Origin: Trichoplax adhaerens
Lineage: Eukaryota > Animalia > Placozoa
DNA length: 64,000 bases
Reading direction: 5' to 3'
Assembly: GCF_000150275.1 (NCBI RefSeq)
Contig: NW_002060951.1
Span: forward strand, 2,256,323-2,320,322
The notes beneath the pieces are model-generated. The model had not been told where the DNA came from and made no database searches. It worked only from the letters and a program-made list of their open reading frames with translations. Position 1 is the first letter of the stretch. Every line of letters begins with the position of its first letter. Shown here one piece after another: positions 6,038-63,352 of the stretch. A program made the translations under genes and the position numbers.

Positions 6038-6080
6038 TACTGTACTGTACAGTGTACACTACCTGAGACACTACAGTACT
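6038..6080. repeat. Short GTAC palindromic array 20-60 bp upstream of the FAXC-like C ATG
   Basis: The sequence reads attactgtactgtacagtgtacactacctgagacactacagtactc. Confidence 0.6.
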
Positions 6081-6100
6081 CAACAATAAAGTTAAACAAG

Positions 6101-8050: not shown

Positions 8051-9036
8051 TAAGAAATACTGATGTACCTCGATATATTATTATTTACGGTCCAGTATTT
8101 GACGTCTCCCAAGCTAAGCGTCTGATACAAGCCGCAGCTTATATGGCTCTTTAAGAAAATAACACAATAAAGTCAATATAATTTTAATATTTAGCTTCCA
8201 AAATAACTATTCAATGATGCTTAGACATATCTTAGTGGAAGCGTTGCTATTTCCAATTGTTTTACTCCATTGATCTGCAGAACGAAGGTTTGCATGAGTT
8301 TTATCTTTCGTACTGGATTCGCGAATACATAATTATTAAATCACCTTAACATAACCATTACCGCAACTCTTGCAAATAACGCTATGAAAATGTCTTGGAA
8401 TTTTTTTTCATGATGGCTTGAGCTGCCGCCTGCATAATTTATAATCGTATTACTCTTATACTCGTACATGTATGTCAGCAATTCAAGTTAAAGCTTGACG
8501 AATTATAAATACTATTTCATTCTCCTTTCATTTAAATATAAATGTTGTTAATATGAGAGAATGATCTTTGATATTATTATAGTTTTGTTTCTCAAAGAGT
8601 ATTTATCATTACTATTAGCTACCGTTATTGCAGAGCCGAGAGGATTTGACCGGTCTAAATTTGCAGTGATAGTGTAACATCCAAGATCCCGTGATCTTTA
8701 CAAGTAATTAATTATTCACTGAAGACTACATGGAAAATTCAAGAAAAACAACAACATAGATTTGCAATTTGAGAACTGTGCACAAGAGGGGGAAGACTAA
8801 GAGTTAAAGAATCACCAAGAGTTCATATTATTCACGCAATCCCTTAAAATTTAGACGTACTAAGAATAACTATACTCATTTAGTAGTAGCAAGCATTTCT
8901 CCTACGCAAGTTAGTTTAATCTCTTTGCTAAGTTCTAATTGGAGTACTGTATAGTCTCTTAAAAATTATTCAGCTTTACATTCTTATAATTCTTATTACA
9001 CTTTGATTCACACTCGTGATTTTAGGATACCTTAAA

Positions 9037-9140
9037 GTACAGTACTCTGATTCGAACTGGTTCACACTCAGTACGATACAGTACAGTACTGTACAGTAAT
9101 TCATGGATGTACACTTGTACAGTACGTACTGTACTGTACT
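9037..9140. repeat. GTACT/GTACA palindromic pentamer array, about 420 bp upstream of the GLT1D1-like ATG
   Basis: The sequence reads ...agtacagtactctg...cagtacgatacagtacagtactgtacagtaa...gtacagtacgtactgtactgtactg. The units are GTACA/GTACT. Each run is its own reverse complement (TACTGTACAGTA). Confidence 0.75.
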
Positions 9141-9190
9141 GAAAGAGAAGACAAGCTGCTACGCAAGCGTAGCAGCTTGTCTTCTCTTTC
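9141..9190. repeat. Perfect 24-bp inverted repeat with a 2-nt spacer (hairpin or cruciform). It is followed by a partial third copy of one arm at 9191-9211
   Basis: gaaagagaagacaagctgctacgc | aa | gcgtagcagcttgtcttctctttc. The right arm is the exact reverse complement of the left arm. It lies immediately 3' of the GTAC array. Confidence 0.8.
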
Positions 9191-9562
9191 AGTACAAGCG
9201 TAGCAGCTTTGATTGATTGAATTTGAGGGTGTTGTCGATTGTGTTACCTAGATTCATTCGGTTCATCAAAGATTGCATATGAATTAGGCACTGTGCAAAG
9301 TTAGTTGTCACCCCATGAACCGTTTCTTCTTTAATAGCTTAGTAAAAGACAAAGTAAAGATGAAAATAACATGACAATTCATTTTGCACACTACTGGAGA
9401 TTACCAAACTTGCGGCCTGGTTAGATTAGACACTCAGTTAATTTGCAGCTGTTACCCGTCGGCGCTGTTATTAACAATACTGCTGTAGGCAGCAGATGAG
9501 TTAATAACTATCTATAACTATATAATTTCTGGTAAAAAGTAATTTCATTTTTCTTATTGACG

Positions 9563-16800: not shown

Positions 16801-16899
16801 TTTCGCTCTTGAATTGCACTAAAATACGTTTATCTGTATTCGAGCTTGGATCACTAGTGGAATACAGTACGTTAGTAAAGTGAAACCATTTCAGATGTA
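13829..16899 (-). CDS. NLE1: Notchless homologue (NLE1), a WD40-repeat ribosome-biogenesis factor. Minus-strand exons listed 3' to 5': 13829..13921, 14000..14056, 14130..14189, 14267..14309, 14421..14526, 14626..14725, 14842..14888, 14978..15065, 15188..15226, 15338..15493, 15574..15610, 15727..15824, 15930..16006, 16085..16164, 16240..16285, 16411..16582, 16712..16899. The 5' end and start codon are not resolved
   Basis: The spliced translation is collinear with my recollection of human NLE1 from the NLE domain to the C-terminus. Matching stretches: ...GSPLDVPIEVDVKRLQLICNAVINE / DDSTPYAFYLNNEEILDDLQTTITAKNVDTESIIEIVYQPQAVFRVKSVTRCSSTLPGHTEAVISVAYSPDGSYLASGSGDTTVRFWDINTETPDYTCKGHKHWILSIAWSPDGEKLASGCKKGEICLWDPKTGKQIGHVLVGHKQWITYLSWEPMHK / DSDCRFLASSSK / DASVRVWDTVTGITKYVLSGHLQCVTCVKWGGEGLIYTSSQDRTIKVWRASDGILCRTLQGHGHWVNTMALNTDYAMRIGAYDPAKG...KNRQEKSLQKYNLALKLTGKELMVSGSDDYTLFLWHPAKEKTPIARMTGHQQLVNMVCFSPDTRLIASASFDKSVKLWDGITGRFITSLRGHVKSVYQVSWSADSRLFLSSSADSTLKVWDVKSKKLHMDLPGHADEVYAIDWSPDGEKVASGGKDRVLKL...*. 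All intron phases are consistent. One intron (15494..15573) appears to use a GC donor. The first listed exon has no in-frame ATG, because there is an in-frame stop at 16900-16902. The initiator must therefore lie in an unresolved upstream exon. Confidence 0.88.
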
Positions 16900-18167
16900 T
16901 CGCACAAATTTAACGTTTAGCGGAAGTATGATTAATAATATGAAAACATACTGTACATTGCAGCACAGTAATATAATATAAGAACTGTTAAATTATCATT
17001 GCAAATAAAATTGACTTGTTTGATAAGCATTTATACGTAGTAGCATCTATCATTGGTCAAAAGTATAATAAATGTCCTTGTATATGGTAGTACGTATACC
17101 AATAACTGGTTTCTACTGTTATTAACGGAATAAAAATAATGTAAGAATTGCAAATCTTAGTATATCAAAGCATCGTACCGTACCTACAGTATGATCAGAA
17201 ATTTATTTCTATACGAAGACACCTTAAACATGAATGTTCTACAGGTACAGTAATGAATAGAGATGCAACTAGTGACAACCTGACAACATGTCCTCGTGAT
17301 TGATGATAAAATTAGGTTATCTCATTGAGATATTATAATGATATATATACTAATTAATGCATCATTGACATCGAGATTTACAGTAAATATATCATCGGTG
17401 AACTGATCTGAGCTTGTTGCAGTTGCATCTTACAATGCATACACTATTCTACTGTATAAGATCCTTAAAAGGTGTGAGCTCATTATTGCAACTCGTTTTA
17501 TATTCATATTTCGCAACACAATGTCCTAAAAGTAAGTCATTATAATACATCCAAATGCAGTACAGTACGCAGTAAATATTGAAGACTCATTGACAAGGTA
17601 AGCTTTTAAGACTGCAATCAATGCGCCTAACAGTCACTCATTAATAACTGATAAAATCAATAAATCAGTACTTGCAAACTACAGTATGTGTACAAATGGA
17701 AGTACAATGTAATCGGATTATAATTACGGTATTTATCAGTCGTATTACAGAACTACCTATCTTCCAATTCAATATGTTACAGTGTTACTGGACAAGTACA
17801 CATGCTCTACAATTCCGTTAGCCATATAAATTGGTGTAATTAATCATGGCATCAAACATGTTTCCCTGTTCTAAGGCATGTTTCTAGCTTTCAGAGTTTT
17901 GAAGTCTACAAGCATTTGCATAAGCGTTTTTGCATTGCTGGGTGGTGAGTTGTGCTGCACCAAACTCAAACGGATACAGTACTACACGAAAGATTGAAAA
18001 ACATTCTACAGCTATCCCAAGCAAGGCAAATCAACAGCTAACCTCATAATGTCATGGAAATTTATCGTTAATCGTTCAGCTTTAAAAAATATTACCAAAT
18101 TTACACATCTAATCTACCATGTACAGCAGTGTCTGCAACTTAGCAACTTCTTTATTTCACTTCGAAG

Positions 18168-18560
18168 TAGAGTACTGTACGTACTGTACACTGTACAGTA
18201 CAGTACAGTCACCTCACTTGACTGTACGCTTGCACAGTAGCCAAAAAATTTTAAATTTCATAGTGTTCACTGTACTGTACAGTGTACAGTACTGTAAGTT
18301 GGAGTACTTTGTACTGTACTGTACTGTACTGTACGTTCAAGACTAAACTGCACGTGCCAACAAATCGATATTGTGATGTGACGTGGCGACTAAAAGCGTA
18401 CAGTATTCCAGTACTGTATTGTACTGTACTGTACTGTAGTGCTGTGCAATGAGTGTCCATACAGTACAGTACACTGTACAGAACAGTACAACTTCTCGTT
18501 AACGAATGATCTCGATAAATTTCTTTTTCTTTCTCATACTGTACTGTACACTGTACGTAG
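18168..18560. repeat. Large GTACT/GTACA palindromic array cluster in the NLE1/TMED2 divergent intergenic region
   Basis: Runs include gtactgtacgtactgtacactgtacagtacagtacag, actgtactgtacagtgtacagtactgt, gtactgtactgtactgtactgtacg and gtactgtactgtactgtag...acagtacagtacactgtacagaacagtaca. Spurious Y/S/T/V-rich ORFs (18049-18595) are translations of this repeat. Confidence 0.8.
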
Positions 18561-18715
18561 CGAAATGGATCAGCGCGATTATTTGATGTATACAATATTT
18601 TATCTTGCCAAACTATAAACTACTGCACTTTAAGCAGATATACAGTTTTATGGGTTTTATTCGAAAATAAATCATAAAAATATTCACTGACTTATCTAGA
18701 AAGAAATTCTACACC

Positions 18716-18886
18716 ATGTACTGTACAGTAAATGAAAGGGAAGATCTACTGTACTGTACACTGTACTGTACGTACTGTATAGTACTGTACTGTAATGGAT
18801 GAGTTGATATTCGTATTACTGTACTGTACTGTACAGTACAGTACAGTACAGTATAATACTGTACCGTACAGTACAGCTGTAGTAAC
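18716..18886. repeat. GTACT/GTACA palindromic array with clear (CTGTA)n(CAGTA)n dyad symmetry. It ends about 110 bp upstream of the TMED2 ATG
   Basis: The sequence reads tactgtactgtacactgtactgtacgtactgtatagtactgtactgtaa ... ttactgtactgtactgtacagtacagtacagtacagtataatactgtaccgtacagtacagctg. Confidence 0.8.
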
Positions 18887-18993
18887 CCATCGAAGGCTTT
18901 TTACTGTAGCCTTATTATGATATTTTTTATCATATGAGATTGATAAAGAAGGCTAGAAGTAGCTGTAATTTAGAATAAGAGTAGCTAAGCAAG

Positions 18994-21067
18994 ATGAAAT
19001 CCTGTAAAATATTGGTTGCTATCTTACTACTCTTCGTCAGTAACTGCCATGGATACATGGTTCGCATTGATGCTGATTCAGAAGAATGTTTTACGGAGAA
19101 AGTTAGCGGCGGTTCTAAAATGGAACTAACTTTCGAAGTTTCGGAGGGTGGTTTCCTGGACATTGATATCAAGGTAAAGCTTTTTAATTCATTATATTGT
19201 ATATTATCCTACAATACGTAGCAGTAACCGAGAATTATGAATTTAATTTTCGCTTCTTTCTCATTTTACTCTTTACTATTAAGTCTGTAACGAATACCAT
19301 AGTTAAAAAAAGGATATTTACAGCTTCTCATGGTACTTAGTTACAGCACTGTACAGTGTACACTATACTTTACTCTACTGTACTGTAATTCACGTACGTC
19401 TAAAAACGGAGACGCTTTAATAAAGGACAAGAAAGGGCAATTTATAACTCAATGGATTGGATACATCTAGAATGTACAATTTATACTGTAACATTGGAAA
19501 CTGTTATTCATACATCCGTAATGTTTTAAATTTGGGAGTAAAGCATTTGGAAACTTCAACCGTATGTACAGTACAGTACAATACAGTTACGATTCCAGCT
19601 AAAGATGCCATCATTACTTTGTTCTCTGTCAGTTGCATACAATAAATACATTAATCGAAGATTTAAGATTAAAATGGATAAAAAATGTTGAATTTTTGGC
19701 TGTAGCATAACTCTGCAAATACAGCTTTTTTCGATTACAGAAGCTCATAGTCGGATTTACGCAGAATTATCATCAGATTTACGATAAAGAAATTATTATA
19801 AAAATGTTGTAGCCTGCTATATTATATTGTCCTCACATAATCCAAGATATGCCGAAGTAGAGATACTAATGACTTTTGTAGCGGTGAATATAGCGCAATA
19901 TCAGTAAAATATACAGTAACTTAAAGCCATTTGACTCTAGGATACTTGATCATATCTGCATCCATGATATATTATACTCTATGACGCAGTATACAGTAAC
20001 TAATTGTAAGAATGTTATAATTTGGCTAAAAGATACATGTGAGACAGTGGTTGCTCTTTTGAACTAGTATCTCCACTAATATGCGGACGTAGTGGAAACA
20101 CTATACTGTACAGTAATGTATTTTGCAGGAATCCTAACCGTACCGTATCTAGCACCATATTATCTGCGTTGCGAAAGTGATGTCGCATTGCATGAAATTT
20201 TAAGTCACTAATGTCTACTTTTAAACCTTCAAAAGGTGACAGCACCAGATGGTAGTGATATCTATCGTGGAGAACGTGAATCAAGTGGCAAATATGTCTT
20301 CGCGGCGCCTGTGGATGGTGTCTACACTTACTGTTTTGGTAACAAAATGTCAACTCTTACTCCAAAAACGGTAGTGTTTTCGTTAGAGGTTGAAGTAAGA
20401 AAAGATCCTGCTGCTGTCAAAGACGACGAAAAAGATAAAGACGGTATCAACCAATAGGAAATAGCTTTACTAAATTACGTTCTGTTTTATGCTTTACTGC
20501 CTAATCTCTATTGTACAGTATATATGAAGCTGTAGTTCTTATACTATTACTGTAAGATTGCGGGACAATCAGGCACGACAATGCTCGTACTACATTAAAC
20601 TCTTATGGAACGACCTTCATTTAATGATCTCATGTTTTACTATTATACCATAGCCAACCACAGCCAGCTCGATAGTATGCTTACTCAGCTATCGGTTTCA
20701 CTCAGCAGTGTTAAACATGAACAAGAATACATGCAAATTCGAGAAAGAATACATCGGGAGAGTAAGTTATCAAAAACCAGTATGATTACGTATGCTTAAC
20801 ATTGCAAATGCGATATTCGCACTGTGTGTGGTATGTTACCGTTTCAAATGTTGACTATTTCCATACAAAATGATATGTGGATTGGTACGTACAGTATTTA
20901 ATGTTACTAATGAAGTAAATTTATCTTTTAAATTTTATTTAGTCAACGATAATACGAACTCAAGAGTTGTGTGGTGGTCGTTCTTTGAAAGTCTTATTTT
21001 GGTATTTATGACCCTTGGCCAAGTATATTATCTGAAAAGATTCTTCGAAGTCAGAAGGGTTATCTAA
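18994..21067 (+). CDS. TMED2: Transmembrane emp24 domain protein 2 (TMED2/p24-beta1)-like cargo receptor. Exons 18994..19173, 20236..20443, 20653..20760, 20943..21067 (621 nt, 206 aa)
   Basis: A signal peptide is followed by the GOLD domain: [60 protein letters not shown] / [57 protein letters not shown]... / [36 protein letters not shown] / [41 protein letters not shown]. The C-terminal 60 residues are nearly identical to the recalled human TMED2 sequence ([59 protein letters not shown]). Junctions are phase-consistent GT-AG. Confidence 0.85.
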
Positions 21068-21768: not shown

Positions 21769-23295
21769 TTATTGGATAATCTTATAGTTCTGCCGAGGTT
21801 CATTAAGAAGAATCCCATTTCTCCGGAAAGCTCTGATAAATGCAACAGTCTACGAAGAAGGAAATTAAAACATTGTGAATGATATAAGCAACTATATCAA
21901 AGAATCACAGTTGCAAAATTTGCATAGTTTACAAAGCGAACAGAAATTTACGTTAATATTACTAGTTAAGAGTACACTATGCACTGAGAAGCAGTAAATT
22001 GATGATTACCTTTTTACTTCGTTGTTTTGTCAAGATACGGTCAACAATTAATCGTTCGATACCTGCCGCATGACATCGTTGTGCAAGCACACGACCAATA
22101 TTTTCTGCTGCAGCTACGTCGCTAGTTTTATATAAATGCCTTGCTATTGGAAATTCTTTCGTAGAAGCACTAGCAACCCGATGTCCATCTCGATGGCATA
22201 CATAAGCACTGATGTGCCAGTTGGAAATTTCCAAATGTGCTCTGAAAGGGATTATATTTCGCAGATCAGTATTACGTAGCATACACTATCCTGTCGAATA
22301 AGTTCATATAGTAAACGGGGTGCAATGAACATAGATCGCTGAAGTACAGTTTTATAGCCTTTTAAGGACACGTATTGCGTATTTTTTCTCGGTATAGAGC
22401 TGCAGCCCCTAATTCAATTTCTCATCTACAGTAGATGGTTATAACACTGCACCGAGGGTTATTTCTTTAATTCACCGTTATAAGCACACGCTTTAACGTT
22501 AAAAGGCAACAAGGGATCCACTTGCACTCCGAAATATTGAGCCAACATTTAGTTAAAGTGCAGAGCTGTGCTTATTACAGTGTACGAGATAAATTACGCA
22601 CACTGCATGTTGCACTATATTTACAGTGCGTTTATCATCAGTCCGTTAAGTTCAAACTTCGAAGTACGCGTTTGTATAATTTAGGATTAAGCTACTAGCC
22701 AATAAAATCAGTATACGCGTAAAAGTCATTTATCTTGATGAGATAAGTACTGTACTGTAACATAATACTACATGGTGTTTGTAAGATCTCACTACCTTGT
22801 TATGTTGATAGCAAATAGTTCAAATAGTAGGTTTAACTAATTATAGTACAGCATAGTATTACAGTATCCTCTTTCCATGTGTCAGCAGAACCCCATAATC
22901 ACATTGCACGGTGAATTAATACTGAATCTTTCATTAGACTCTACATTTGCATCAAAGTGTAAAAAATTAGGATCAGATTCTTACTTGTGGTAATAGTCCT
23001 GCCTTATCGGATTTGTTCCATAACCTCTTGCCTTCGGTGCTAAGGCCATCAATTCTAAATTACGCGGATTACGATTATTAAAAACGGTAGCATATTTTAA
23101 TTGTTTCGTCCCATCTTCTTTATCCATCATATCATCACTTGAGGAATACTTTGCAGCTGGTTTCAATGTGTTTGCTATAGTGCTTGTCGAAAGTGCCCGA
23201 TAACCAAAGAACATCGTATTTGAAATGTTCATGAGCAATCGATGACCTATGCAAGTCGGTAGCGAAGACATTTCTATACCATTAGTACTAGACAC
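21769..23295 (-). CDS. MRPL18: Mitochondrial ribosomal protein L18 (MRPL18; uL18m)-like. Exons 22985..23295, 22010..22241, 21769..21849 (624 nt, 207 aa)
   Basis: Exon 1 reads M...FNNRNPRNLELMALAPKARGYGTNPIRQDYYH, which has the conserved NRNPRNLE motif. Exon 2 reads [68 protein letters not shown]...KK. This is the uL18 core, matching human ...[39 protein letters not shown]. Exon 3 reads TVAFIRAFRRNGILLNEPRQNYKIIQ*, matching human EGGVVLREPQRIYE. The donors are caa|gtaaga and aag|gtaatc, and both acceptors are pyrimidine-rich. Confidence 0.75.
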
Positions 23296-23827
23296 AGTTG
23301 ATAAAATTGGATAAAGCAGAACACAAATTCACAACAGCGGAAGCAGCAATCTACACGACTTTGCTCCTTGCAATGAAATAAAGCTAGACCCACCCGGACT
23401 ACGCTAAACCAGCTTTTAACAGTACAGTTGCAGTTGTGCCGTAACCGTAGCCAGCAGACTGGCTGGCAGGTTGCGGTGCTGTGGTAGTGCGGACGGATGG
23501 ACAGTGAGTACTGTACAGCGTGTATGGGTGCTTACATTAAATTTGGATCATTCAACAATAACTAAATGAGCACCAACAAAAATGGTCGATTCGCAATAGT
23601 TACAGGGAAATTAATCCTACAATACTAAAGTTATAGGCTGCAGAAGTTTTGATAAGTGTACAGTTCAATGTACAACGTGAAGAATTTCAATCCAGATTTT
23701 TCAAAATGAAATAAAGTGGCCGAAAATTGATCGACTTTATTTAAATTTTATATAAATCATACATATAAAGTTTGTTTTACAGGTTTTATTTCGAAAATAA
23801 ACCATAAAAATATGCACTGATTACTCT

Positions 23828-23995
23828 ACTGTACAGTAGAAAAGAAATCCTACACAATGTAGAGTTTACAGTGTACAGTACAGTACAGGCTAAAAAATGA
23901 TCGAAGAGGATCTCCCGCTTGGCAAGGAGTTTTTACTGGCATTATACGCCAGCATATTGTACAGTGTACACTCGGTGTAGGGTACAGTGTATAAG
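23828..23995. repeat. GTAC palindromic array upstream of MRPL18 (a minus-strand gene whose ATG is at 23295)
   Basis: The sequence reads tactgtacagtag...cagtgtacagtacagtacagg...tgtacagtgtacac...gggtacagtgtat. Confidence 0.6.
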
Positions 23996-33690: not shown

Positions 33691-34461
33691 CTGTAAGAGT
33701 CAGAAAATATAGTCTTGGAGCTAGAAATCGATGCTATTTAAGAAATTAAGTTGTATTTTGCTAACAAAATTAGCATTCCGATCGATTAAGTTCATTAATA
33801 GTACATACTGAACTGTACACTGTACAGCATACGTATACAAAAAATGATAAATTAACCAACTACGATCTTTACTAGCAATTGCTTCCTCCTTAATTATCGT
33901 AAAATGCGAGGATTAAACTATAGTATAAGGTTGTGTTGATTTCTAGTTGAAAGGATTTTCAGCTAGACGGTGAATGTTACAATGTATCATTATGTGAATA
34001 ACTTAATATGCTGAATTATCGTCAAAGTAGTTTCTACTATACTTATATTACTTAACATTTATAAGGTACTGTACCTATGTCGTTGCAATAGCGGTTTTCC
34101 TTCAAATTTTTCCGAAACAATAATCACAGAGTAACTCGATCCACAGCCTCCAGAAATATCTTCTACTTTCTAAACACATTTTTATAATCAATGCTTAGTC
34201 AGCGGTTACAAATTACTTCCAATACCACACAATTACTAGTAGCACAGGATACACGATGCACATGAACACTTTAACGTTTAAATATGTTCATGTGTAAATA
34301 TTATAACAGATATAGTAAGTTATCTTACCACAAAAGAAGCATTTAATTCGTTTTTCAACTTATTTTCTATAGTATCTGCTGAAACTGACATAATTTCTTA
34401 AATAAGAATAATTTATCAATCTTCAAAAGTTATCTACTGTACCAGATGATGGACTACTAGA

Positions 34462-34730
34462 TACTGTACAGTACATCTGAACTCTGTACCTGGCTGTACA
34501 GTATGTACAGTACACTGTACTGTACACCTGTCGATGGTTAGAGCTCTTTGCAGTACTGTACTGTACTGTAATACAGTACAGTATACTGGAGCAGACCAGA
34601 CCATGAAGACCTCTAACAGTACAGTACAGTACAGTGTAGGGTTACAATACACTACTGTACAGTACAGTCAAGCGATCCCTTGTTAGTTTTGTACCGTGTA
34701 CAGTGTACAGTGTACAGTACTGTACTGTGC
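34462..34730. repeat. GTACT/GTACA palindromic array that abuts ORF 34746
   Basis: Runs include atactgtacagtacatctg, ggctgtacagtatgtacagtacactgtactgtacac, gcagtactgtactgtactgtaatacagtacagtatactg, acagtacagtacagtacagtgtag, actgtacagtacagtc and gtgtacagtgtacagtgtacagtactgtactgtg. Confidence 0.8.
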
Positions 34731-41430: not shown

Positions 41431-41508
41431 TGACTAAATGACGAACTACGCAAGCGCAAAGGGTTGAAGCGGTAATGTATCAGGTCTGTTATGGCCTGTA
41501 ATGACTCT

Positions 41509-42035
41509 ACTGTACTGTACACTGTACACTGTACTGTAGTGTACTGTACAGTACAATCTGATTATTTTCGATGTTTCCCCTCCGTTAAAAAATCAAAGTT
41601 GTACAGTACTGTATTCCGTTGAAATTCCTGTATAGTATTTATATAGACCTGTAGAATATAGAACTTATCTAGTTTGGGCCTGATTTAGCTTATACAATTA
41701 TGTGTTTTCAGGGTGCCATCGAAAATAATCACACTCAGTACTGTACTGTACGTTGGGAGAAGAAACCTCTCTTTCCATACTGTATTCCATACCCTACCAC
41801 TGATAGTACTGTATTGTACTGTACTGGATGTTCTATACGGTACTGTATTATTCTCTTTTTCTTCATGTAAGGATCATAATGACTCTAAAAAAATTAGAAT
41901 TACAGTACATTAGACTCTAATCGAAAACGACTGATACTGTACTGTACAGTACTGTACTGTACGGTACAAAACCGTACAGTATATTTGTACAGTACATCGT
42001 ACTGTACAATATGACTGTACAGTATTGTCCAGTCA
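41509..42035. repeat. Extended GTACT/GTACA palindromic array cluster immediately upstream (about 80 bp) of the minus-strand ATG at 41430
   Basis: Runs include ctactgtactgtacactgtacactgtactgtagtgtactgtacagtacaatctg, gtacagtactgtattcc, cagtactgtactgtacgttggg, agtactgtattgtactgtactgg, tgatactgtactgtacagtactgtactgtacggtac...ccgtacagtatatttgtacagtacatcgtactgtacaatatgactgtacagtattg. Confidence 0.8.
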
Positions 42036-44261
42036 GTTGCACGTAAATTTGGTCAAACACAAGTCAAATCATGGTTCAAATACGGTTTTCGTAGATCAAC
42101 TCCCAACCGTGTGGTATACTGAATAGATGGGGAACTGCGTAAAGTGGTTAATCAAACTATTAATTAATTAAATACTGTACTAATGATTGCCTGCTGTGTT
42201 AATAAATATGCGTATATAGTAGACGGAGATACTACCCCTTCGTTGGTTTTCTTATCCGTATTACGAAGCTGGTGCATTAAGTAAATTGATAAGTCCATCT
42301 AGGGAACACTAAAATATGACAAAAGCTGAGATACTTGCAGTATTACAGTGACGCAGGTCCATAAACTATAACCGATACTTATCTGGACATTGATAAAGTA
42401 CCTTTCAAAATCCTAATTACTCTTTAACCGTACTATAAAAAATAAAATTAAATTAGGAATCAATATTTTTACGCATGAAATAGAGTGCTATAGTACCGGA
42501 AGTACGGTACGGAAGTACATGACGTAGTCAGTAAACAGTACTGTACCTGGTAAACCAAGATACAGTTTGGGTACCTGTCTCAGACACTGTAATCCATAAT
42601 GCCAACTACAAATGACAAGTTCTCAGTATAGGGTAATAAGTTAACAAACAGGCTTGGCAAGTCAGCCTAGTCTAATCATGGACTAGCTCAGTACAGTACA
42701 GTACAGTACTGCGCCATGATCACATTTGCAGCATGTCAGTATGACTGACAAGAAATATTGTTCGAGCACAAAAATTTTTCGGCATGGCATGGGGCAATTC
42801 ATGAATTTGATTCATTTTTTAATGACTAAAAATCGAAATTTTACAGTTAATAATCGTAATATTGATCTTGGAGATGAAAGTTACCTCATTCAATGCACTA
42901 TTTTTCACTGCCTTATACACAACATGTACATTGTACAGTGTCTGCGCGAATAAGTAGAGAACTGTACATAAGAAATCTCGCTTTACAACCGCAAGTGCTC
43001 AATGATATTACAGTAATGAATCAATTAATAATGCAATTAATGAGAGTAATAGGAGTGGTATTCCGCAACTAAATTTTAATAAATTGGTTATTGGTATTTT
43101 TATTAATTTTTACCGCAGTATTGAGCTATTTTATTTCTTTCAAATTTCTAATACAAACCAACAGTCACTAGTGCATATACGGTCGGTTCAACCAGTATAC
43201 ATAGCTCACGCAGTAATCGTGGTCATAACTACAAAGTTACTATTTTTTTATTCTTGAGGCCTACAGTTGTTTAATTACTGTACCCCACCTCAATGTTAAT
43301 TATACTGTATGTTATTTATTATCATGATAACTTTTGTCACATAAACTGTAAATTAAAAATGAATTTGCATAAGCATTTATGAACAGACGTTCATGGGAAA
43401 TCACAGCGATTGTTTCTGTTAGCATTTTTTGGATGTAAGAATTTGTTGGTGTACTTCTACCAACGGCTATACGAAGTATAATATAGTGAATTGATTATTG
43501 CTGTCGAGCACTATTAAAAGCATTATTAAATGAAGGGTTAACGTTTACGTAAGGCAATAAGCACGCAGTTTAATGCAATGCTTAAGATCACGTACTGCAA
43601 TAAAGGCGTTTTGCGATATTTTGCAACGCTGCTAGTTGATAGCAAGACATACAATACAGTGTTACGCGTAAACTTCCACTGAAGAGCTTTGCCTAGTTGT
43701 TCAAGCTATTGCTAAATTACGTATTTAATTTATTCTTGTATGTGGCAATCTTATCCGCCGTCTATGTTCGTCTTATCTAACTCAAGAAGGTACAGTAGAC
43801 TCATTTAAACCTTGCTCTCTACTCAATAATTTTGGCAATAAATAGAATACATACGAGGCTGCAAAATTGAATAAAGGCACAATATTGCACTCAAAGAACA
43901 AACCCTCTTATACTGGTCCTGCATTACTGCCAAGATCAATAGATGATTATTCTACTTTTATTGTTTATTGTTCTTTCATTTACCAATAACGTCTACCCGC
44001 ATTGACACCTTGCCTGTTATGTAATACACTATAAATAATGCATTAACTATACTACCCTTGGTGCTTATTTGTTATCTTTTCTTCCTAAATTATAATACAC
44101 ATTAATACAAGTTCTACTTTTATCTTAAAACGCCTGTTCTAGCATAATTGTTCATAAATAATTTAGCAGCCATTGATTAAAATCCATCCAATTACAGTTG
44201 ATCAACAACTCAACCCCTACGGTACAGTGCATTAGACCGTGCCATCCAGGCAAACAACAAG

Positions 44262-47200
44262 ATGGCGGAAGGGGTAAGATTCGATTCTATTTCATCGCTT
44301 ATTCAGCATTATTACCTTGATATATTGATCATTCATCGTTCATCAAGTGATTTTTGATATCGATTTAGAACATGTTCGTGTGGATAAGTAACACTTTGTA
44401 ATTCTTAGAAAGATAATTCCATCTCAAAAGATAGATTAAAATTGCTTGTGAAAATTTGATAACTTACTGTACTGTATACTGTGTAACACATACTGTACAG
44501 TACAGTACTGTATTATTACATTACACAGTACTGTACAGTATCACAAGACGGCGTTGATAGTTTACATAGTCCTTGTGAGTACTTTTTACCTGTTGAAGAT
44601 TTTAACATTGTGTTCTTTCCTTTCCCTACGTATTCAAATGTTCACTCAAGGTATTAAAAAAATATCAATATTAAAATATCAGTGTAAGAAATTAGTCTCA
44701 TTAGTTGTCGTAAATCGTACGTATAAGATTAAATCCTTTCATGTTTTAAGTCCTGTCGACAGAAGATTGGAAATCTTTATCGTATCGAAACCATATTTCA
44801 AGATGTATTGATTGCATACCGTGTACTGTATAATAAGCATGAAAATAATCGTAAGGCCAATGTGTACAAATTCGTCTACACCTGATGTTTCTTAGCTTGG
44901 CTTTATTATAAACGCTAATGCTAAGTTTAGAAGGTATTTTTTCAACTTGCGTTCTTCTGCAGCAGACAAAACCATATTACATTATACAGTACAAATATAG
45001 AAACGAATACCAGCTTTATCCATTCACCATTAAATGCAATATCGTAAATAGCCTTAATATTGTTTCGATAGTGTCCTCATATCTCTTTCTTCGTTCTTTT
45101 AAGAAATTATTAAATAATTGGGCGTACTTAATGTTTATAAATAAATTTACTTTACTAGGCTATTGACGATTTTGTAGCAAAGAACTTTAAGCTCTATCAG
45201 AAACCTCCGTCTAAAGAAAATAAGTAAGTTATTTACGGGAATAACTAGTTATCCACTTCGATACTCGTACTCGAAAATGATAACAATCCATTAAGATTTT
45301 TTCTTCTTGATTTTCTTCTAAAATCTAGTAAAAACTAGTACAACGTTTTTAAATCTAATCTATTAATTATGAATAATCATATGTTATGTTTAATTAAACT
45401 TAAGATAATCAATCTTGTATAGATATATCTCACTTTTATCTATTACTATAGTATTACAGATGCTTACGGAGAAATTGAATTCAATTACGCCGGATATGAA
45501 GCATCAAAGGCGAAGGTTTGTCAGTATTTACTATTTATTAACAATTAATATGTTAAGGTCGTTTTGCGAGTTTATTTTTACTTTGCACTCTCATCTGCTT
45601 TATTAGTTTAGTACTTTCGTAACTACAGAGATATACCCTGATTAATCTTTTGTAGTATTTGTAGTTGTAATCTAACTTATATAGCGCTTAAAAATAAAAT
45701 AGTTTAAGATGATGCTCACTCCTATGTTGAACTAAGAATGGTAAAATAAATCAACGTACTGTTCTAATTATTTAATTCTATGCTTGCTTAAATCCATCTT
45801 CAATAGAGCGCACAGTGTTTATTGTTTGTTTCTAAAGGTGTCGTTCTTGATAATGTATTATGTATCAAATTTGAGATTTTAAGATTAGCTTCGAATTTCC
45901 TTGCTTGAACAGTAACAGTTATTACCTGTTGAATATTTTCTGTATAACGCAATGACCTGCCTATGGAAGAAATAATTTTGTAGACCTACGCGGTGCTAAT
46001 GTACAGTATGCCTTGCAATGGGAATCAAAACATCCCATTATCCCATGTGTATTTTCTTTATAAATACTAGTAACATCCAATGCGTTGTATAATCAGAATA
46101 GATATAAGTTCCATTAAGAATTAATCAAACATAAACGGCCTTAAGCATGTAGTGATGGTATACGAGCCTTACCTCACATCAGTTAATATCCATGATTCAT
46201 AGCAATGCTTATTATTTTCTTTCTACAACCGTGAAAGAGATTCTTGTTTATTTCGAAGTGAAGTAATTATGCAATAATTTACTAAATAGTATCTTAAGAC
46301 CTCCATTAACGCTGAAATAGCTAAAATTGGTGAGCTATTTCTTAATTACTGGAACATCCGTGAACCAGATTTGGTCATGTCGATGGTTGGTGGTTTCGAA
46401 AATTTACCAAGGAAACCTTCAATACTTCGATTAAATCAAAATCTTGCTGCAATAATGAAAAGAATATGCAGTTATCATTCAACAGCTATCATAACAAGTG
46501 GATACTGTGAAGGTTTCATTCGCAGTACTGCCAAAGCAGTAAATAAACAAGGTACTATCATTGGTATACCTTCCTGGAATTCCGTTTTTAAGAAGGAGTT
46601 ACTCACGAGTAAAAAGGTAACTTGTCAATATTAGAAGTAGCGATTTAAATTTCTATATTATTATGATTAGCGTATGCCCACAAACAATGTTTGTGCGTTG
46701 AGGTTCGTCAAGCAATACTGTGCTGTATCGCTAGCTTAATACATTATAACCGTTCACACTGCATCTAGCAAATCAGAATCAGACAGCACGCACACGCACT
46801 GAATAAATCCAAAGCGGACACTGTTTTTTTTGTTATAGTATTCAAATAGATATAGATATTGGGCTGCATAGTCAATGCATACAATATATCAAGAACGTTA
46901 GTAATTTATGCAGGTTGGTTAATCGTAAAAATATTGACAATATAAATTTATTGATAGTAAATATTTACGTCGTTAATGCGTATCTAAGTAATAAGTAAGT
47001 GCCGTCTGTGCCGATGAAACCATACAGCACAAAATGAACTAAGCTGCATGTTAGCAGCTAATTTGGATGTCCATCGTGAACAGTATGGTATACAGCTGTA
47101 GACATGCGATACAGTTGAAATGGCTGGTAAAATACAGTAATTATTAAATTTGTGACAACCGCCTCCTGTCCCTGTCTTTTCCTTTTAGTAGTCTCTGGTG

Positions 47201-56496: not shown

Positions 56497-56971
56497 AACA
56501 TACTGTATTACTTGTCGGATCAAGTGCATTAACGGACTCAAAGATATTTTTTATACTATATCATATAGACATATACAAATAGGCAAAACACTAATCTAAA
56601 CCTGTGCATCATGAATTTTGCAGCTAGCCTAAACTAGACCCACCAACGGTTCTGTAAATAGCTAGTTGACACATCCAAAGCCCATCGTAGTTACATGACT
56701 TACACCCGCAACTTACATGGTTTAGTATTTACAAAGTCTTGCTTTAATGCACAGAAGTCCTGGTATTATACTGTAAATTGAAGATCCGCTATCTAGAGTT
56801 AATACTAAGGATAACAGAGTGTTTACATTTGCTTCAGAATACTGTATAAGAATTCTATTTAAATGCTATTATCAATATTAAAACTGTATAGATTTTAGAT
56901 TTTATACCAGCATGTAGCTAATGACCTGAAGATTCTTTGTATACTGTAGTTTTTACTATATTGTCTGTATT

Positions 56972-57125
56972 ACTGTACTGTACAGTGTACAGTGTACAGT
57001 ACCGTAATCTCAATCTCACAACTTGCCAACTTTACGGCCGTCAATCTGGATTAGTACAGTACTGTATATTGTAGTGCTGTACAGTACTGTACTGTAGTGT
57101 ACAGTACTGTAGCTACAGTACTTAG
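56972..57125. repeat. GTACT/GTACA palindromic array about 380 bp upstream of the delta-tubulin ATG
   Basis: The sequence reads tactgtactgtacagtgtacagtgtacagtaccg ... ttagtacagtactgtatattgtagtgctgtacagtactgtactgtagtgtacagtactgtagctacagtac. Confidence 0.8.
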
Positions 57126-60299: not shown

Positions 60300-62752
60300 T
60301 CAATTAGCAACCTTCATCTCTTCAATTTTGGAGTTATTGAGCTTTTTGTAACACTCAAAACTGCATAATGGTAAATTTAATTTAGAATCAGCATACCGGC
60401 GAAAATTCTTACAACCGTCTACTGTACATAATTCTCGTTCTTTCGGGCTGTAAATATAATTGTTGAATGATGAGTATCACCTTACTCGAATAGTAACCAT
60501 GGAAAATGTTATTAACAGATTTAATCATCAAAAGTCACCGCGTTCATGGCAGAAGCAAAAGTAGAATAACAAGAACTCACATTTTTATGGTCTGAGCGAT
60601 CATAGGGAATTCTATGTTTTCAGGAAAGGATAAGCTAAAAAAATTTACACGATTTGTATAACGGATTCTTGGAATATCTTTACTTCCCATAGACTTCTAA
60701 AAGTGATAATATAGGAATTTTATAAGGGATTAGGATGAAAATAGTGTATCATCTAATCCTACTTTTAAGTGTATATGCGCTATTTGAGTTAAAGTTGCAC
60801 ATATCATAATGCTTACCTTAGCTGCATCTTTTCGAGAACGACTAGCTTGTTTGTACAATAATTTATCAATAGTTTGGGCCTATCATAAGTAAATAATTTT
60901 AAGCTGATTCTTATCTCAGACAAACATCAATTAATTACTTATGGCTTTACTGTTAGCCAATATAAACGTAAGTAAAGTGCCCTAACTTTATTCTGTTCAA
61001 TTTTTTTTGCAATTTGTAACTTTCTCTTTGTCGCTCGCTGTTGCTTCCGTTGTAACATTTCTTCCGTTACCTCTTTGCTTTGCTTGCGTCCTAGTTAAGA
61101 AAGTGGGATGTTAACTTAGAATAGATCTTTCCAATTTTCTTAGCCGTTTTTATCAAGTGTAGTAATGCATATTACTATTAACTAATTGATTACCCATAGG
61201 TAGTTCTAGTAAAGGTTCTACATATTCTACTTCTCCCATCATCGCTCGCTAAACGTAACGATTGAATAAAGTCCAGATAATTTCAATAGTACAATAGTCC
61301 ATCTTTATAATTTTTAAACAAGCACATAGTCTCACTTGTCTTGCAGTCATCATGGATTTCTTCCTTGCAGTTCTGACTCTTCCATTTTCATCTAAGTCTC
61401 CGCTTTCCAGAGCAGCAAGCCATTCGTCCTCACTTATACAAATATGCAATGAACGAATGATACACGTTGACAATGGTGTAAAGCAGAAGACAAAATTAGA
61501 TTTCTATAAATAAATATAGCAGTTGTTCTTGGACTATAAAGGGCTGCTCTTCTACCTGTCTCCATTTTCTACATTGACTTCTTGGGATTTTTCATCTGCA
61601 GATGCTGTTCATATAGATTATTTCATTAAGCCATAGCTATACATTTTTGGCAATACTGGCCTTATAAAATTGTATTAATTATGCTATGTACAGTATACTA
61701 AAAGATAGAAAATAATGCATTTTATGATTTTACCATAATGTTCATCTTCGTGTCTTTCGCTATTAGCACTGTAGACCTCTATATCTTCCTCTTCTTCAGA
61801 TACCATAAACTCTCTAACCCTGTGATACAAGATAGGAGTCTATCTTAATTTATTCATAAAACGCTAGTATTTTAGGAGCCCGATTTACAGTATACGGGCG
61901 TAAAACTCTAGTTTATGAATGATTGTACGTTGTTATGCAGTTTATTCAATTTCGCGAGATTTTAGTGCAAGGGGCTAGTGTACCTCTCATGATAGTCGTT
62001 TATGACAGTAAATGCACTATAAAAGAATTGAAATAATTTAAATCCTGCAATTTTTTAATGGGACAAACTTACTGTGCGTGGGTCGTAGCTAATGTTTGGC
62101 CACCAAGTTTAATCTTTAATTTGACTTCTCTACCTTTACTTTCAGACGACTCTTCCATTGAGCCATGTTCTTTCTTTCTTTTATGTTTCTTATGCTTATG
62201 TTTATGCTTCTTTTTATGAGTTGGTCCTGAATAAGATAAAGCTAAGCTGTAGTCTGATCTACCTATTTATACCTTTACTAAATCATACGGTGTAAATGAT
62301 CGTATGGTAGATACTACTAGATACTATTGTGGTCAATTATAATAATTAGTTTCACGATCACTGCATCGGCATCAGGATGAGCAAGTAAAGAAATGATATG
62401 TAGTTATGCCCCAACTGCTATTGATATACCTAATTGTTTAATACAGTAAATGAAAGTATTGAAAATCTAATCTCCAACAATAGTAGAATTAAATATTACG
62501 TAGATTTGTAAATTTATCTACCAAAAATAAAAATTGACCTATCTAATGCGCTGCAATCAGAAGAGAAATACACACCGTTGATTACTGAATATCTACAGTA
62601 TACGTACAATATACTGTACATACTGTACTCTATACTGTATAATAGTTTCGTCAGTCTCATGATAAGGTGAAATGGTTAAAATACTACATCGTGAACTTAC
62701 TTGAATTATTTACTTCCTCTTCCAATTCTTTATTCGATTTCTGTTTCCCCAT
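60300..62752 (-). CDS. INO80B: INO80 complex subunit B (INO80B/PAPA-1; C-terminal zf-HIT). Exons 62701..62752, 62073..62226, 61734..61819, 61556..61604, 61336..61432, 60987..61070, 60818..60880, 60581..60696, 60300..60447 (849 nt, 282 aa)
   Basis: The spliced protein reads MGKQKSNKELEEEVNNS / RPTHKKKHKHKHKKHKRKKEHGS...VKLKIKLGGQTLATTHAQ / VREFMVSEEEEDIEVYSANSERHEDEHY / ASADEKSQEVNVENGD / SEDEWLAALESGDLDENGRVRTARKKSMMTARQ / VTEEMLQRKQQRATKRKLQIAKKIEQNK / AQTIDKLLYKQASRSRKDAAK / ...IRYTNRVNFFSLSFPENIEFPMIAQTIK / IPKERELCTVDGCKNFRRYADSKLNLPLCSFECYKKL...*. It matches my recollection of human INO80B at five separate signatures: the HKKKHKKHKKK run, KLKIKLGGQVLG, EEQRWLDALEKGELDDNG...LLTARQ, TEEMLLKREERARKRRLQAARRAEEHKNQTIERL, and the zf-HIT CSVPGCPHPRRYACSRTGQALCSLQCYRINL. 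All nine exons are phase-consistent. Confidence 0.8.
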
Positions 62753-63352
62753 TACAGTTCTTAATGCCGCGCCAATCTATTGATGAAAATTAGTTTCAGC
62801 AACAACTGAAAATAATATTCCAATCTCTCTCTTCTCTCTTCAGTAGTCCACTAGTCCCCCTATACTGCACATTGCTCCATACAATCCGTTGATCTGCATC
62901 AATTCTTATGAGTTGTCAATTTCTAGAGCTTCTTCTAGCCGATATGGTGTGCCGATACCAGTACGGTACGGTAAGTCAATGTACTGTACACTGAGTGTAC
63001 AGTACTGTATAGTATTGTACCGTAAATACTATTCAGGTGCTTGAGTACCGTACAGTACAGTACTGTGTATGGTAGTCACAAATACGGTACAGTGCAATGT
63101 ACTGTACACTAGTGCGGTACTGTACTGTATGACACGGCCAGTCTGACTGTACCCTGCACTCTCCTGGTACGCGCACAGTTGGATTGAAATCTAGCAAGAT
63201 TCGAAAATGGCGTACGGCTATCTATCGCCACCAACTGGAGACTAACATTGAAACGATTTACTGTAAAATTGATACACTATAAATAAGATTGCTGTTGTCA
63301 CGATCGTTTACTTTAAATTGTGGCTTGAAAATTGAATTCATCCGGCTTGATT
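62753..63352. promoter_or_regulatory. Divergent intergenic region between the INO80B ATG (62752, minus) and the candidate plus-strand ATG at 63353. It contains a GTAC palindromic array
   Basis: The array at 62958-63130 is centred between the two start codons. Confidence 0.35.
62958..63130. repeat. GTAC palindromic array in the INO80B divergent promoter region
   Basis: The sequence reads ccagtacggtacggtaagtcaatgtactgtacactgagtgtacagtactgtatagtattgtaccg...gagtaccgtacagtacagtactgtgtatgg...acggtacagtgcaatgtactgtacactagtgcggtactgtactgtatgac. Confidence 0.75.

What the first reader, a model, noticed from the sequence alone, without database searches (positions are those of the whole stretch)
18168..18886. 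Palindromic GTACT/GTACA pentamer arrays recur at gene 5' ends and divergent promoters
More than a dozen loci carry runs built from GTACT and GTACA, typically arranged as (CTGTA)n(CAGTA)n. The dodecamer TACTGTACAGTA and every longer run is its own reverse complement, so each array is a potential cruciform. Their placement is not random. The strongest and longest arrays lie within 20-450 bp upstream of start codons or inside head-to-head intergenic regions. Array positions and the adjacent genes are:
- 9037-9140, then GLT1D1 ATG at 9563;
- 18168-18886, between NLE1 and TMED2 (ATG at 18994);
- 23828-23995, upstream of MRPL18;
- 34462-34730, then the ORF at 34746;
- 41509-42035, then the minus-strand ATG at 41430;
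- 44465-44550, near the TRPM 5' end;
- 56972-57125, then TUBD1 ATG at 57507;
- 62958-63130, between INO80B and a divergent gene;
- 6038-6080, then FAXC-C ATG at 6101.
Shorter copies also occur in introns, for example at 19320-19400 and 62596-62640. This behaves like a lineage-specific promoter-associated satellite. Possible roles are as a cis-regulatory or nucleosome-excluding element, a TSS-proximal structure, or the footprint of a promoter-targeting mobile element. I do not recognise it as a described core-promoter motif.
Basis: partly seen in the sequence, partly recalled or inferred. Interest (0 to 1): 0.8.

Follow-up and report, generated by a model that had tools for sequence, protein, structure and literature searches.

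The report
Known Trichoplax ACAGT promoter microsatellite
The repeats are real and do sit at gene starts, but they are the (ACAGT)n repeat of the placozoan Trichoplax adhaerens, described in 2010 as the genome's dominant microsatellite lying upstream of genes; its function is still unknown.

Summary
The window is Trichoplax adhaerens: the spliced TMED protein is identical to XP_002114983.1, and non-coding DNA is 98-99% identical to Trichoplax sp. H2. The arrays exist at every listed coordinate. TAC[A/T]GTA occurs 230 times against 18.6 in shuffles. Density is 12.8/kb within 1 kb upstream of start codons, 1.7/kb in gene bodies and 0.85/kb in 3'-only zones (circular-shift p=0.002).

This is already published. 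Wang et al. 2010 reported (ACAGT)n as the dominant Trichoplax microsatellite, 54% within 1 kb upstream of genes. A 2026 neural-network study of Trichoplax Micro-C maps recovered repeating ACAGT.

The claimed (CTGTA)n(CAGTA)n order is not typical: 12 T-to-A against 11 A-to-T junctions.

Additional results from this analysis:
- The unit is a 7-bp palindrome with a near-random central A/T. (GTACW)n arrays in metagenomes are homogeneous instead.
- Arrays gain and lose units about 17 times faster than flanking DNA between H1 and H2.
- Individual units show no site-level constraint.
- A divergent placozoan keeps a cluster at the same promoter.
- The unit equals the canonical excision footprint of Sleeping-Beauty-type Tc1 transposons.

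Best reading: fast-evolving clusters of a palindromic protein-binding site in promoter open chromatin. Rivals are not excluded.

The parts
6038..6079 (.). Short TACWGTA array 22 bp upstream of the FAXC-like (GST_N_4/GST_C_6) ATG at 6101
9036..9141 (.). Array about 420 bp upstream of the glycosyltransferase (GLT1D1-like) ATG at 9563
9140..9191 (.). 52-bp near-perfect palindrome abutting the array. 36 bp of it are absent in Trichoplax sp. H2 (inverted duplication specific to this lineage)
   Evidence: 29-bp stem, -34.6 kcal/mol, z -13
18172..18334 (.). Focal array block 1 in the NLE1/TMED divergent intergenic region
18335..18397 (.). Unique block between arrays (ATCGATA, TGACGTGG), nearly identical in H2 (one substitution); likely holds conventional promoter elements (inference)
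18398..18549 (.). Focal array block 2
18613..18716 (.). Segment replaced relative to H2. It is an 88% copy of 23774-23823, which is present in both lineages (ectopic templated patch between arrays)
18717..18876 (.). Focal array block 3, including the longest perfect run, TA(CTGTA)3(CAGTA)4 at 18817-18853, and TACAGCTGTA near its 3' end (about 18865-18875)
19376..19580 (.). Two short copies in TMED intron 1. The second has a 15-bp tandem duplication in H2
23827..23888 (.). Array about 560 bp upstream of the MRPL18 ATG (23271, minus strand)
34435..34728 (.). Array ending 18 bp before the MRPL50-like ORF at 34746; includes (TGTACAG)4 with 7-bp period
41508..42024 (.). Two array blocks (41508-41613, 41738-42024) upstream of an unverified minus-strand ORF (ATG 41430)
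42689..42709 (.). (CAGTA)4 next to an ETS-like/CRE-like promoter block at 42493-42520
44465..44540 (.). Array upstream of the TRPM gene (5' end not mapped)
56971..57121 (.). Array about 390 bp upstream of the TUBD1 ATG at 57507. It is the only rearranged stretch in an otherwise 98% identical H1/H2 alignment
62594..62639 (.). Short copy inside INO80B (downstream of its ATG at 62752, minus strand); 5-bp indel relative to H2
62958..63129 (.). Array in the INO80B/Rabaptin divergent intergenic region (ATGs at 62752 and 63353), with GTACGGTACGG variants; 16-bp indel relative to H2

Best explanation
These are the (ACAGT)n / (GTACW)n repeats characteristic of Trichoplax adhaerens. The unit is the 7-bp palindrome TAC[A/T]GTA. 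Units either overlap through a shared TA (5-bp period) or are packed with a 7-bp period.

I think they most likely act as dense clusters of a palindromic binding site for an unidentified dimeric DNA-binding or architectural protein. They sit in the open chromatin of promoters, especially head-to-head ones, and would help mark or insulate those promoters. This role is inferred, not shown.

What is shown:
- Arrays flank, rather than replace, conserved unique promoter blocks.
- They expand, contract and flip their central base very quickly.
- Individual units evolve at about the neutral rate.

So any selection would act on having a cluster at the promoter, not on each unit.
For: Source organism: exact protein match to T. 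adhaerens XP_002114983.1, and 98-99% non-coding identity to Trichoplax sp. H2.

Published genome-wide 5' bias and a proposed transcription-factor-site role (PMC2871265).

A neural network trained on T. adhaerens Micro-C maps recovered repeating ACAGT among its de novo motifs, which were confirmed by in silico mutagenesis to alter predicted contact maps (PMC12817080).

5' bias in this window: 12.8, 1.67 and 0.85 units/kb for upstream, genic and 3'-only zones, p=0.002.

Motif grammar:
- GTAC is kept and the central base is A/T in 87 of 94 GTACNGTAC sites.
- The 5-bp and 7-bp packings share the heptamer GTACAGT.
- The A/T centre is near-random (39 of 62 adjacent units the same), as expected for the centre of an odd palindrome read by a dimer. 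(GTACW)n arrays from metagenomes are 95.5% homogeneous.

A divergent placozoan (Logan SRR30664517; exons 80-87% identical, non-coding DNA not alignable) has 7 units in the 570 bp upstream of TMED and 3 in the other 4.7 kb.
Against: No binding protein is known and none could be tested.

Non-central positions of aligned units differ between H1 and H2 at 12.7/kb, about the intergenic background of 14.6/kb. That background is somewhat inflated by the replaced 18613-18716 segment. No site-level purifying selection is visible.

Arrays are the least conserved part of these promoters: 15.8 indel events/kb against 0.93/kb elsewhere, while the unique blocks between them are nearly invariant.

The network result may simply use the repeat as a proxy for promoters.

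Cross-species conservation rests on one locus.
Confidence: 0.4

Rival explanations
1. Neutral by-product. A hypermutable quasi-palindromic microsatellite persists where it is tolerated and where open chromatin or replication-transcription stress favours slippage, hairpin-mediated template switching and microhomology-mediated repair. It has no function of its own.
For: - 17-fold excess of indels, in unit multiples of 5, 15, 16, 17, 22 and 28 bp.
- Central-base flips in 7 of 131 aligned units, against an A-T substitution rate of 0.14% per site.
- Unit positions evolve at background rate.
- Repair scars next to arrays: a lineage-specific 52-bp palindrome at 9140-9191 and an ectopic patch at 18613-18716.
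- Hairpin-capable stems of 11-17 bp.
Against: - Introns are abundant and tolerant, yet carry 1.67 units/kb against 12.8/kb upstream.
- The same repeat in other organisms stays homogeneous, so instability alone does not explain the mixing seen in Trichoplax.
- A cluster persists at the TMED promoter in a divergent placozoan despite rapid turnover.
Confidence: 0.25
2. Accumulated excision footprints. A TA-targeting cut-and-paste (Tc1/Sleeping-Beauty-type) element with CAG...CTG ends repeatedly inserts into promoter open chromatin and excises. Each cycle converts TA into TA-C(A/T)G-TA, and reinsertion into the new TAs builds (CWGTA)n with a random central base.
For: - The canonical Sleeping Beauty footprints are exactly TACAGTA and TACTGTA. 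The A/T choice comes from ambiguous repair of a mismatch, and the non-canonical products include TACGTA (PMC6943129; bioRxiv 10.1101/659086).
- This window has a near-random centre.
- Irregular units are enriched and can be read as untrimmed or partly trimmed end-joining products: TACGTA (44 against 22.4 in shuffles), TACACTGTA/TACAGTGTA (20 against 1.1), TACAGCTGTA (2 against 0.1).
- H2 has TA to TACAGTA at window 24870 where H1 has no repeat, and three units at 18588 where H1 has GTA-TA.
Against: - No TA-CAG...CTG-TA element with terminal inverted repeats is present in the window.
- No transposase domain was found in any ORF of 55 aa or more.
- No polymorphic element insertion appears in 38 kb of H1/H2 alignment despite 26 array indels.
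- T. adhaerens is reported to have very few and inactive transposons.
- About 3.6 units/kb here implies a very large number of cycles genome-wide.
- The gain events could equally be microhomology deletions in H1, because polarity is unknown.
- Several indels are plain tandem duplications.
Confidence: 0.15
3. Remnants or terminal inverted repeats of Mutator-type DNA transposons that target promoters, as proposed for the loop-anchor motif at placozoan housekeeping promoters (Kim et al. 2025).
For: Kim et al. report a motif at loop anchors and at their loop-forming, highly expressed housekeeping class of promoters (their group GP1). The motif lies in 'Mutator' terminal inverted repeats and is shared across four placozoans. 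Array pairs here form inverted arms, for example 18166-18205 with 18747-18786 (40 nt, 85% complementary). GTACGGTAC variants co-occur with the arrays.
Against: - Their transposon calls come from EDTA v2.1.0. From my own knowledge, EDTA classifies inverted-repeat elements structurally, so inverted pentamer arrays could be called Mutator without being transposons.
- No 7-11 bp target-site duplication flanks the 40-nt arms.
- Sequences between arrays are unique in the window apart from one 50-bp patch.
- No MuDR-type ORF was found.
- The Chimaera paper assigns the transposon motif to ACGG, not ACAGT.
Confidence: 0.1
4. A DNA-structural element. Arrays extrude cruciforms, or exclude or phase nucleosomes through their 5-bp periodicity, and so keep promoters open without a dedicated binding protein.
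For: Predicted single-strand DNA hairpins have 11-17 bp perfect stems and 3-nt loops, z-scores -2.3 to -7.2. The period of 5 bp is half a helical turn.
Against: Most runs are short and not perfectly palindromic, and stems are AT-rich and weak. Neither junction type is favoured (26 against 20). Between H1 and H2 the best palindrome, at 18817-18853, is simply absent in H2.
Confidence: 0.1

Closest known systems
(ACAGT)n microsatellite of Trichoplax adhaerens (Wang, Zhang, Meyer, Bao 2010, Biol Direct 5:18)
   Same: Same organism, same repeat unit and same bias to the 1 kb upstream of genes. Proposed there as a possible transcription-factor binding site.
   Different: That paper counted perfect repeats only. 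It did not describe the A/T-mixed palindromic unit, the 7-bp packing, the turnover between lineages or the footprint resemblance.
Repeating ACAGT motif recovered from T. adhaerens Micro-C maps by the Chimaera neural network (NAR 2026, PMC12817080)
   Same: Same motif and organism, linked to predicted chromatin contact patterns.
   Different: In silico only. The text does not say which contact pattern, and it attributes the transposon-borne loop-anchor motif to ACGG.
Loop-anchor motif at placozoan GP1 (housekeeping) promoters in 'Mutator' terminal inverted repeats (Kim et al. 2025, Nature 642:1097)
   Same: Repeated motif at promoters of broadly expressed genes, conserved in position across placozoans. 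This window's array-bearing genes (MRPL18, MRPL50, TMED, NLE1, INO80B) are housekeeping-type.
   Different: The logo is only in a figure I could not read, so identity with TACWGTA is untested. No Mutator hallmarks were found here.
Canonical Sleeping Beauty / Tc1-family excision footprint TAC(A/T)GTA
   Same: Identical 7-bp sequence, including the ambiguous centre and the flanking TA.
   Different: Footprints are single scars at former insertion sites. Arrays of them have not been described in the papers searched, and no donor element was found here.
Ordinary pentanucleotide microsatellites
   Same: Tandem 5-bp period, and length differences in unit multiples between close lineages.
   Different: Ordinary (ACAGT)n arrays, as in the metagenome contigs, are homogeneous (95.5% adjacent units identical). 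Here the figure is 63%, runs are at most 7 units, and a 7-bp packing is mixed in.

Membership tests
Trichoplax (ACAGT)n promoter-associated microsatellite (Wang et al. 2010) | Sequence comes from Trichoplax adhaerens | tested here: met
   The spliced TMED protein from the window is identical to XP_002114983.1/EDV22439.1. Identity to Trichoplax sp. H2 contig NOWV01000083.1 is 98.4-99.1% over 38 kb.
Trichoplax (ACAGT)n promoter-associated microsatellite (Wang et al. 2010) | Perfect ACAGT/ACTGT repeats of 12 bp or more | tested here: met
   44 runs TA(CWGTA)n with n of 2 or more; the longest has 7 units. TRF rows with period 5.
Trichoplax (ACAGT)n promoter-associated microsatellite (Wang et al. 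2010) | Preferential location within about 1 kb upstream of genes | tested here: met
   12.8/kb upstream, 1.67/kb genic, 0.85/kb 3'-only; p=0.002.
Ordinary slippage microsatellite | Units within an array identical by descent (homogeneous) | tested here: not met
   39 of 62 adjacent units share the central base here, against 1430 of 1497 in 120 metagenome contigs found with a pattern neutral at that base.
Ordinary slippage microsatellite | Length changes are tandem gain or loss of adjacent identical copies | tested here: inconclusive
   Of the cleanly aligned array indels between H1 and H2, about 4 of 13 are exact tandem duplications. The rest are bounded by only 2-5 bp of direct repeat.
Tc1/Sleeping-Beauty-type excision footprint | Sequence TA + C(A/T)G + TA, with both central variants | tested here: met
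   125 TACTGTA and 105 TACAGTA. Footprint sequences taken from PMC6943129 and bioRxiv 10.1101/659086.
Tc1/Sleeping-Beauty-type excision footprint | A donor element with TA duplication and CAG...CTG inverted termini, or a Tc1-type transposase, in the same genome | tested here: not met
   None in the window. No transposase domain in ORFs of 55 aa or more. The rest of the genome could not be searched.
Tc1/Sleeping-Beauty-type excision footprint | Gain of a unit at a plain TA site, polarised by an outgroup | tested here: inconclusive
   TA in H1 against TACAGTA in H2 at window 24870; GTA-TA against three units at 18588. No alignable outgroup was available.
Mutator (MULE) terminal inverted repeats | 9-11 bp target-site duplication flanking paired inverted arms | tested here: not met
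   No 7-11 bp direct repeat (at most 1 mismatch, positions allowed to shift by 6 bp) around arms 18166-18205 and 18747-18786.
Mutator (MULE) terminal inverted repeats | Multi-copy internal sequence or a MuDR transposase | tested here: not met
   Self-BLAST with the arrays masked finds only one shared 50-bp patch between array regions. No transposase Pfam hit. Tested within the window only.
Kim et al. 2025 placozoan loop-anchor motif | Match to the published motif logo and overlap with loop anchors | not testable with these tools
   [quoted passage not shown] 8, which are not held. The supplements hold no matrix.
Fixed-position core-promoter element (TATA, Inr or Motif-1 type) | Single copy at a fixed distance from the transcription start | tested here: not met
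   1 to more than 20 units per promoter, spread 20 to about 800 bp upstream of ATGs. Transcription start sites are not available.
Cruciform-forming inverted repeat | Perfect arms of about 10 bp or more with a short spacer | tested here: met
   17-bp stem at 18817-18853; 11-16 bp stems in five other arrays. Most runs are imperfect.
Cruciform-forming inverted repeat | Extrusion under supercoiling | not testable with these tools
   Needs S1 or T7 endonuclease I assays on cloned arrays.

The most novel reading that the evidence does not exclude
The Trichoplax ACAGT arrays are piles of Tc1/Sleeping-Beauty-type excision footprints. Repeated insertion and excision of a TA-targeting element (or the action of a domesticated transposase) in promoter open chromatin adds C(A/T)GTA units one at a time. 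This would explain the random central base, the 4-, 7- and 8-bp variant units, and gains of units at plain TA sites. The genome's most abundant simple repeat, and possibly its loop-anchor motif, would then be a transposition scar that was later co-opted.
Probability: 0.15. Interest if true: 0.7.

Novelty: already known. Interest (0 to 1): 0.3.

Why it matters
The repeat is a published curiosity whose function has been open since 2010. It has gained weight because placozoan promoters form motif-dependent 3D hubs. If these arrays are the binding platform for the still-unknown placozoan architectural protein, they give a direct handle for finding it, for example by pulldown or DAP-seq with (GTACW)n probes. 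If they are instead transposon scars or a hypermutable by-product, part of the 'sequence-determined' reading of placozoan loop anchors would need re-examination. The contrast with homogeneous (ACAGT)n arrays elsewhere, and the 17-fold indel excess between H1 and H2, are concrete features that any model must explain.

Tried and rejected
- Literal sequence terms in the paper library gave only miRNA and PLZF hits. The PLZF-site resemblance (TACTGTAC) was not pursued, for lack of any test.
- The T. adhaerens locus could not be fetched through its own protein. It was reached through the H2 cluster members instead.
- Two of the three homologue searches returned only fragments from a divergent placozoan. 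The RH1-gene contigs (L005-L007) did not reach the array region.
- The scan for TA-CAG...CTG-TA elements found only the arrays pairing with themselves.
- Rfam on 17800-19200 gave only miRNA-precursor hits far below gathering scores (best 42.8 bits against a gathering score of 110). These are generic hairpin matches.
- An RNA gene, a MITE with conserved internal sequence and a preferred palindromic junction (CTGTACAG against CAGTACTG) were each considered and rejected.
- Central-base flips between H1 and H2 may be partly alignment artefacts of unit indels, so that rate is an upper bound.

Full report
**What is there.** The region 18168-18886 and the other listed loci carry dense runs built from GTACT and GTACA. 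The most frequent 7-mer of the whole window is TACAGTA/TACTGTA, with 230 copies against 18.6 (max 31) in 100 dinucleotide-preserving shuffles. Bases covered by (ACAGT)n 8-mers number 1397 against a mean of 74. Successive GTAC sites are 5 bp apart 94 times, 7 bp apart 21 times and 10 bp apart 11 times; no other 4-bp palindrome behaves this way. The base between GTACs is A 40 times, T 47, C 3 and G 4. The unit is best written as the odd palindrome TAC[A/T]GTA. Units either share a TA (5-bp period) or are packed with a 7-bp period, as in (TGTACAG)4 at 34690-34718.

**Where the window comes from.** A delta-tubulin ORF pointed to placozoans. The Trichoplax sp. H2 orthologue gave a syntenic locus in the order TRPM, TUBD1, INO80B, Rabaptin. 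Its non-coding DNA is 98-99% identical to the window. The TMED protein spliced from window exons 18994-19173, 20236-20443, 20654-20761 and 20943-21067 is identical to T. adhaerens XP_002114983.1. The window is therefore T. adhaerens, haplotype H1.

**Gene map and placement.** Pfam on ORF translations, together with H2 gene calls projected through the alignment, gives the following map.

| Gene | Strand | Window coordinates |
|---|---|---|
| Three FAXC-like genes | mixed | 577-7587 |
| Glycosyltransferase (GLT1D1-like) | + | 9563-13306 |
| NLE1 | - | 13829-18047 |
| TMED | + | 18994-21067 |
| MRPL18 | - | 21769-23271 |
| 87-aa gene | - | 24350-24848 |
| RH1-domain gene | + | 25143 onwards |
| MRPL50-like | + | 34746 onwards |
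| TRPM | + | ends 54923 |
| TUBD1 | + | 57507-59550 |
| INO80B | - | 60300-62752 |
| Rabaptin | + | 63353 onwards |

The focal arrays fill the 947-bp head-to-head NLE1/TMED intergenic region. Unit density is 12.8/kb within 1 kb upstream of ATGs, 1.67/kb in gene bodies including introns, and 0.85/kb in 3'-only zones. The circular-shift p-value is 0.002. On this gene map, none of the major clusters listed falls in a convergent 3'-3' gap.

**What does not hold.** The '(CTGTA)n(CAGTA)n' order is not typical. Within perfect runs there are 12 T-to-A and 11 A-to-T junctions. CTGTACAG occurs 26 times and CAGTACTG 20 times. Runs are short (at most 7 units), and only symmetric ones are palindromes. Hairpin potential exists, with 11-17 bp stems and z-scores of -2.3 to -7, but it is modest.

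**It is already described.** Wang et al. 2010 (PMC2871265) found that pentanucleotides make up 61.8% of T. adhaerens microsatellites, and that 78% of these are ACAGT. They found 54% of ACAGT repeats within 1 kb and 85% within 5 kb upstream of genes, and proposed a transcription-factor-site role. The Chimaera study (PMC12817080) recovered repeating ACGG and ACAGT motifs from T. adhaerens Micro-C maps. It attributes ACGG to the transposon-borne motif of Kim et al. 2025. Kim et al. (PMC12221973) report a loop-anchor motif at housekeeping promoters, lying in 'Mutator' terminal inverted repeats and shared by four placozoans. Their logo is only in figures that I could not read. Their transposon annotation is EDTA v2.1.0, which from my own knowledge classifies such elements structurally. 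Inverted pentamer arrays such as 18166-18205 with 18747-18786 could therefore be called Mutator. That link is inference. No target-site duplication flanks those arms.

**New comparative evidence: turnover between H1 and H2.** I aligned 38 kb of H1 to H2.

| Measure | Motif columns (1644) | Other columns (36688) |
|---|---|---|
| Substitutions per kb | 38 | 6.7 |
| Indel events per kb | 15.8 | 0.93 |

Array indels are 5, 9, 15, 16, 17, 22 and 28 bp long. About 4 of 13 clean events are exact tandem duplications. The rest are bounded by only 2-5 bp of direct repeat. The unique blocks between arrays are nearly invariant. The central base differs in 7 of 131 aligned units, against an A-T substitution rate of 0.14% per site overall. 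The other six positions differ at 12.7/kb, about the intergenic background of 14.6/kb. Individual units are thus not visibly constrained.

**Repair scars beside the arrays.** Two scars lie next to arrays. One is a 52-bp palindrome at 9140-9191, partly absent in H2. The other is the H1 segment 18613-18716, an 88% copy of 23774-23823.

**Persistence in a divergent placozoan.** A divergent placozoan contig (L002; exons 80-87% identical) has 7 units in the 570 bp upstream of TMED and 3 in the other 4.7 kb. A cluster therefore persists at this promoter despite the turnover.

**Contrast with the same repeat elsewhere.** Their arrays are homogeneous, with 1430 of 1497 adjacent units identical. In this window the figure is 39 of 62. 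The Trichoplax arrays are not ordinary slippage products.

**The footprint resemblance.** TACAGTA and TACTGTA are the canonical excision footprints of Sleeping Beauty. The A/T comes from ambiguous repair of a mismatch, and TACGTA is among the non-canonical products. Here TACGTA, TACACTGTA/TACAGTGTA and TACAGCTGTA are all enriched. H2 has TACAGTA where H1 has a plain TA at 24870, and three units where H1 has GTA-TA at 18588. Against this reading:
- No donor element or transposase is in the window.
- No polymorphic insertion appears in 38 kb of alignment.
- Polarity of the gain events is unknown.
- The genome is reported to be poor in transposons.
- I found no paper proposing this origin.

**Verdict.** The feature is the known Trichoplax ACAGT promoter microsatellite, so novelty is low. 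I favour homotypic clusters of a palindromic protein-binding site in promoter open chromatin, with selection on cluster presence only (confidence 0.4). A neutral hypermutable by-product (0.25), Tc1-type footprints (0.15), Mutator remnants (0.1) and a purely structural role (0.1) are not excluded.

Noticed in passing
window 9140-9191: A 52-bp near-perfect palindrome (29-bp stem, z -13) directly abuts the array at 9036-9141. 36 bp of it are missing in Trichoplax sp. H2, so it is a lineage-specific inverted duplication, the kind of scar left by fold-back repair of a break.
   Followed up: partly
window 18613-18716 and 23774-23850: The H1 segment between two focal array blocks is replaced relative to H2. 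It is an 88% copy of sequence upstream of MRPL18 that both lineages share. The MRPL18 copy carries an extra CTGTACAGTA inserted at a TA.
   Followed up: partly
window 577-7587: Three tandem FAXC-like paralogues (GST_N_4 + GST_C_6) lie at 577-1688 (-), 3177-4274 (+) and 6101-7587 (+), 71-83% identical at DNA level. Only the third has an array at its start.
   Followed up: no
window 7797-8051: A 131-bp unit repeated twice in tandem (83% identical), downstream of the third FAXC-like gene.
   Followed up: no
window 42493-42520 and 63190-63205: Conventional promoter motifs sit beside arrays. Two ETS-like CGGAAGT sites (one as full CCGGAAGT) plus a CRE-like TGACGTAG lie at about 42.5 kb. A YY1-like AAAATGGCG lies at about 63.2 kb in the INO80B/Rabaptin intergenic region. 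Identified by eye only.
   Followed up: no
window 55510-55548 and 56469-56497: A perfect 19-bp x2.1 tandem repeat with a 24-bp indel relative to H2, and (GCCTGACTAC)2.9, lie in the TRPM-TUBD1 intergenic region.
   Followed up: no
L002 (Logan SRR30664517 contig 3819), L005-L007: Public read sets and an ENA metagenome (ERZ23499115) contain a placozoan about 80-87% identical in exons to T. adhaerens. Its protein fragments, not Trichoplax's own proteins, were the only hits in two homologue searches. The TMED contig ends inside the upstream repeat cluster.
   Followed up: partly
L009-L128 (JGI metagenome contigs): Long homogeneous (ACAGT)n arrays (up to 19 or more units) are common in some metagenome sample series. 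The source organisms were not identified.
   Followed up: no
window 24350-24848 (-): An 87-residue gene called in Trichoplax sp. H2, with no Pfam domain, lies head-to-head with the RH1-domain gene. Only two isolated TACWGTA units lie in their 295-bp shared upstream region.
   Followed up: no
window 17800-19200: The arrays draw sub-threshold Rfam hits to many miRNA precursor models, including mir-101 and mir-144, whose mature sequences from my own knowledge begin UACAGUA. These are artefacts of the hairpin-like repeat, not RNA genes.
   Followed up: yes
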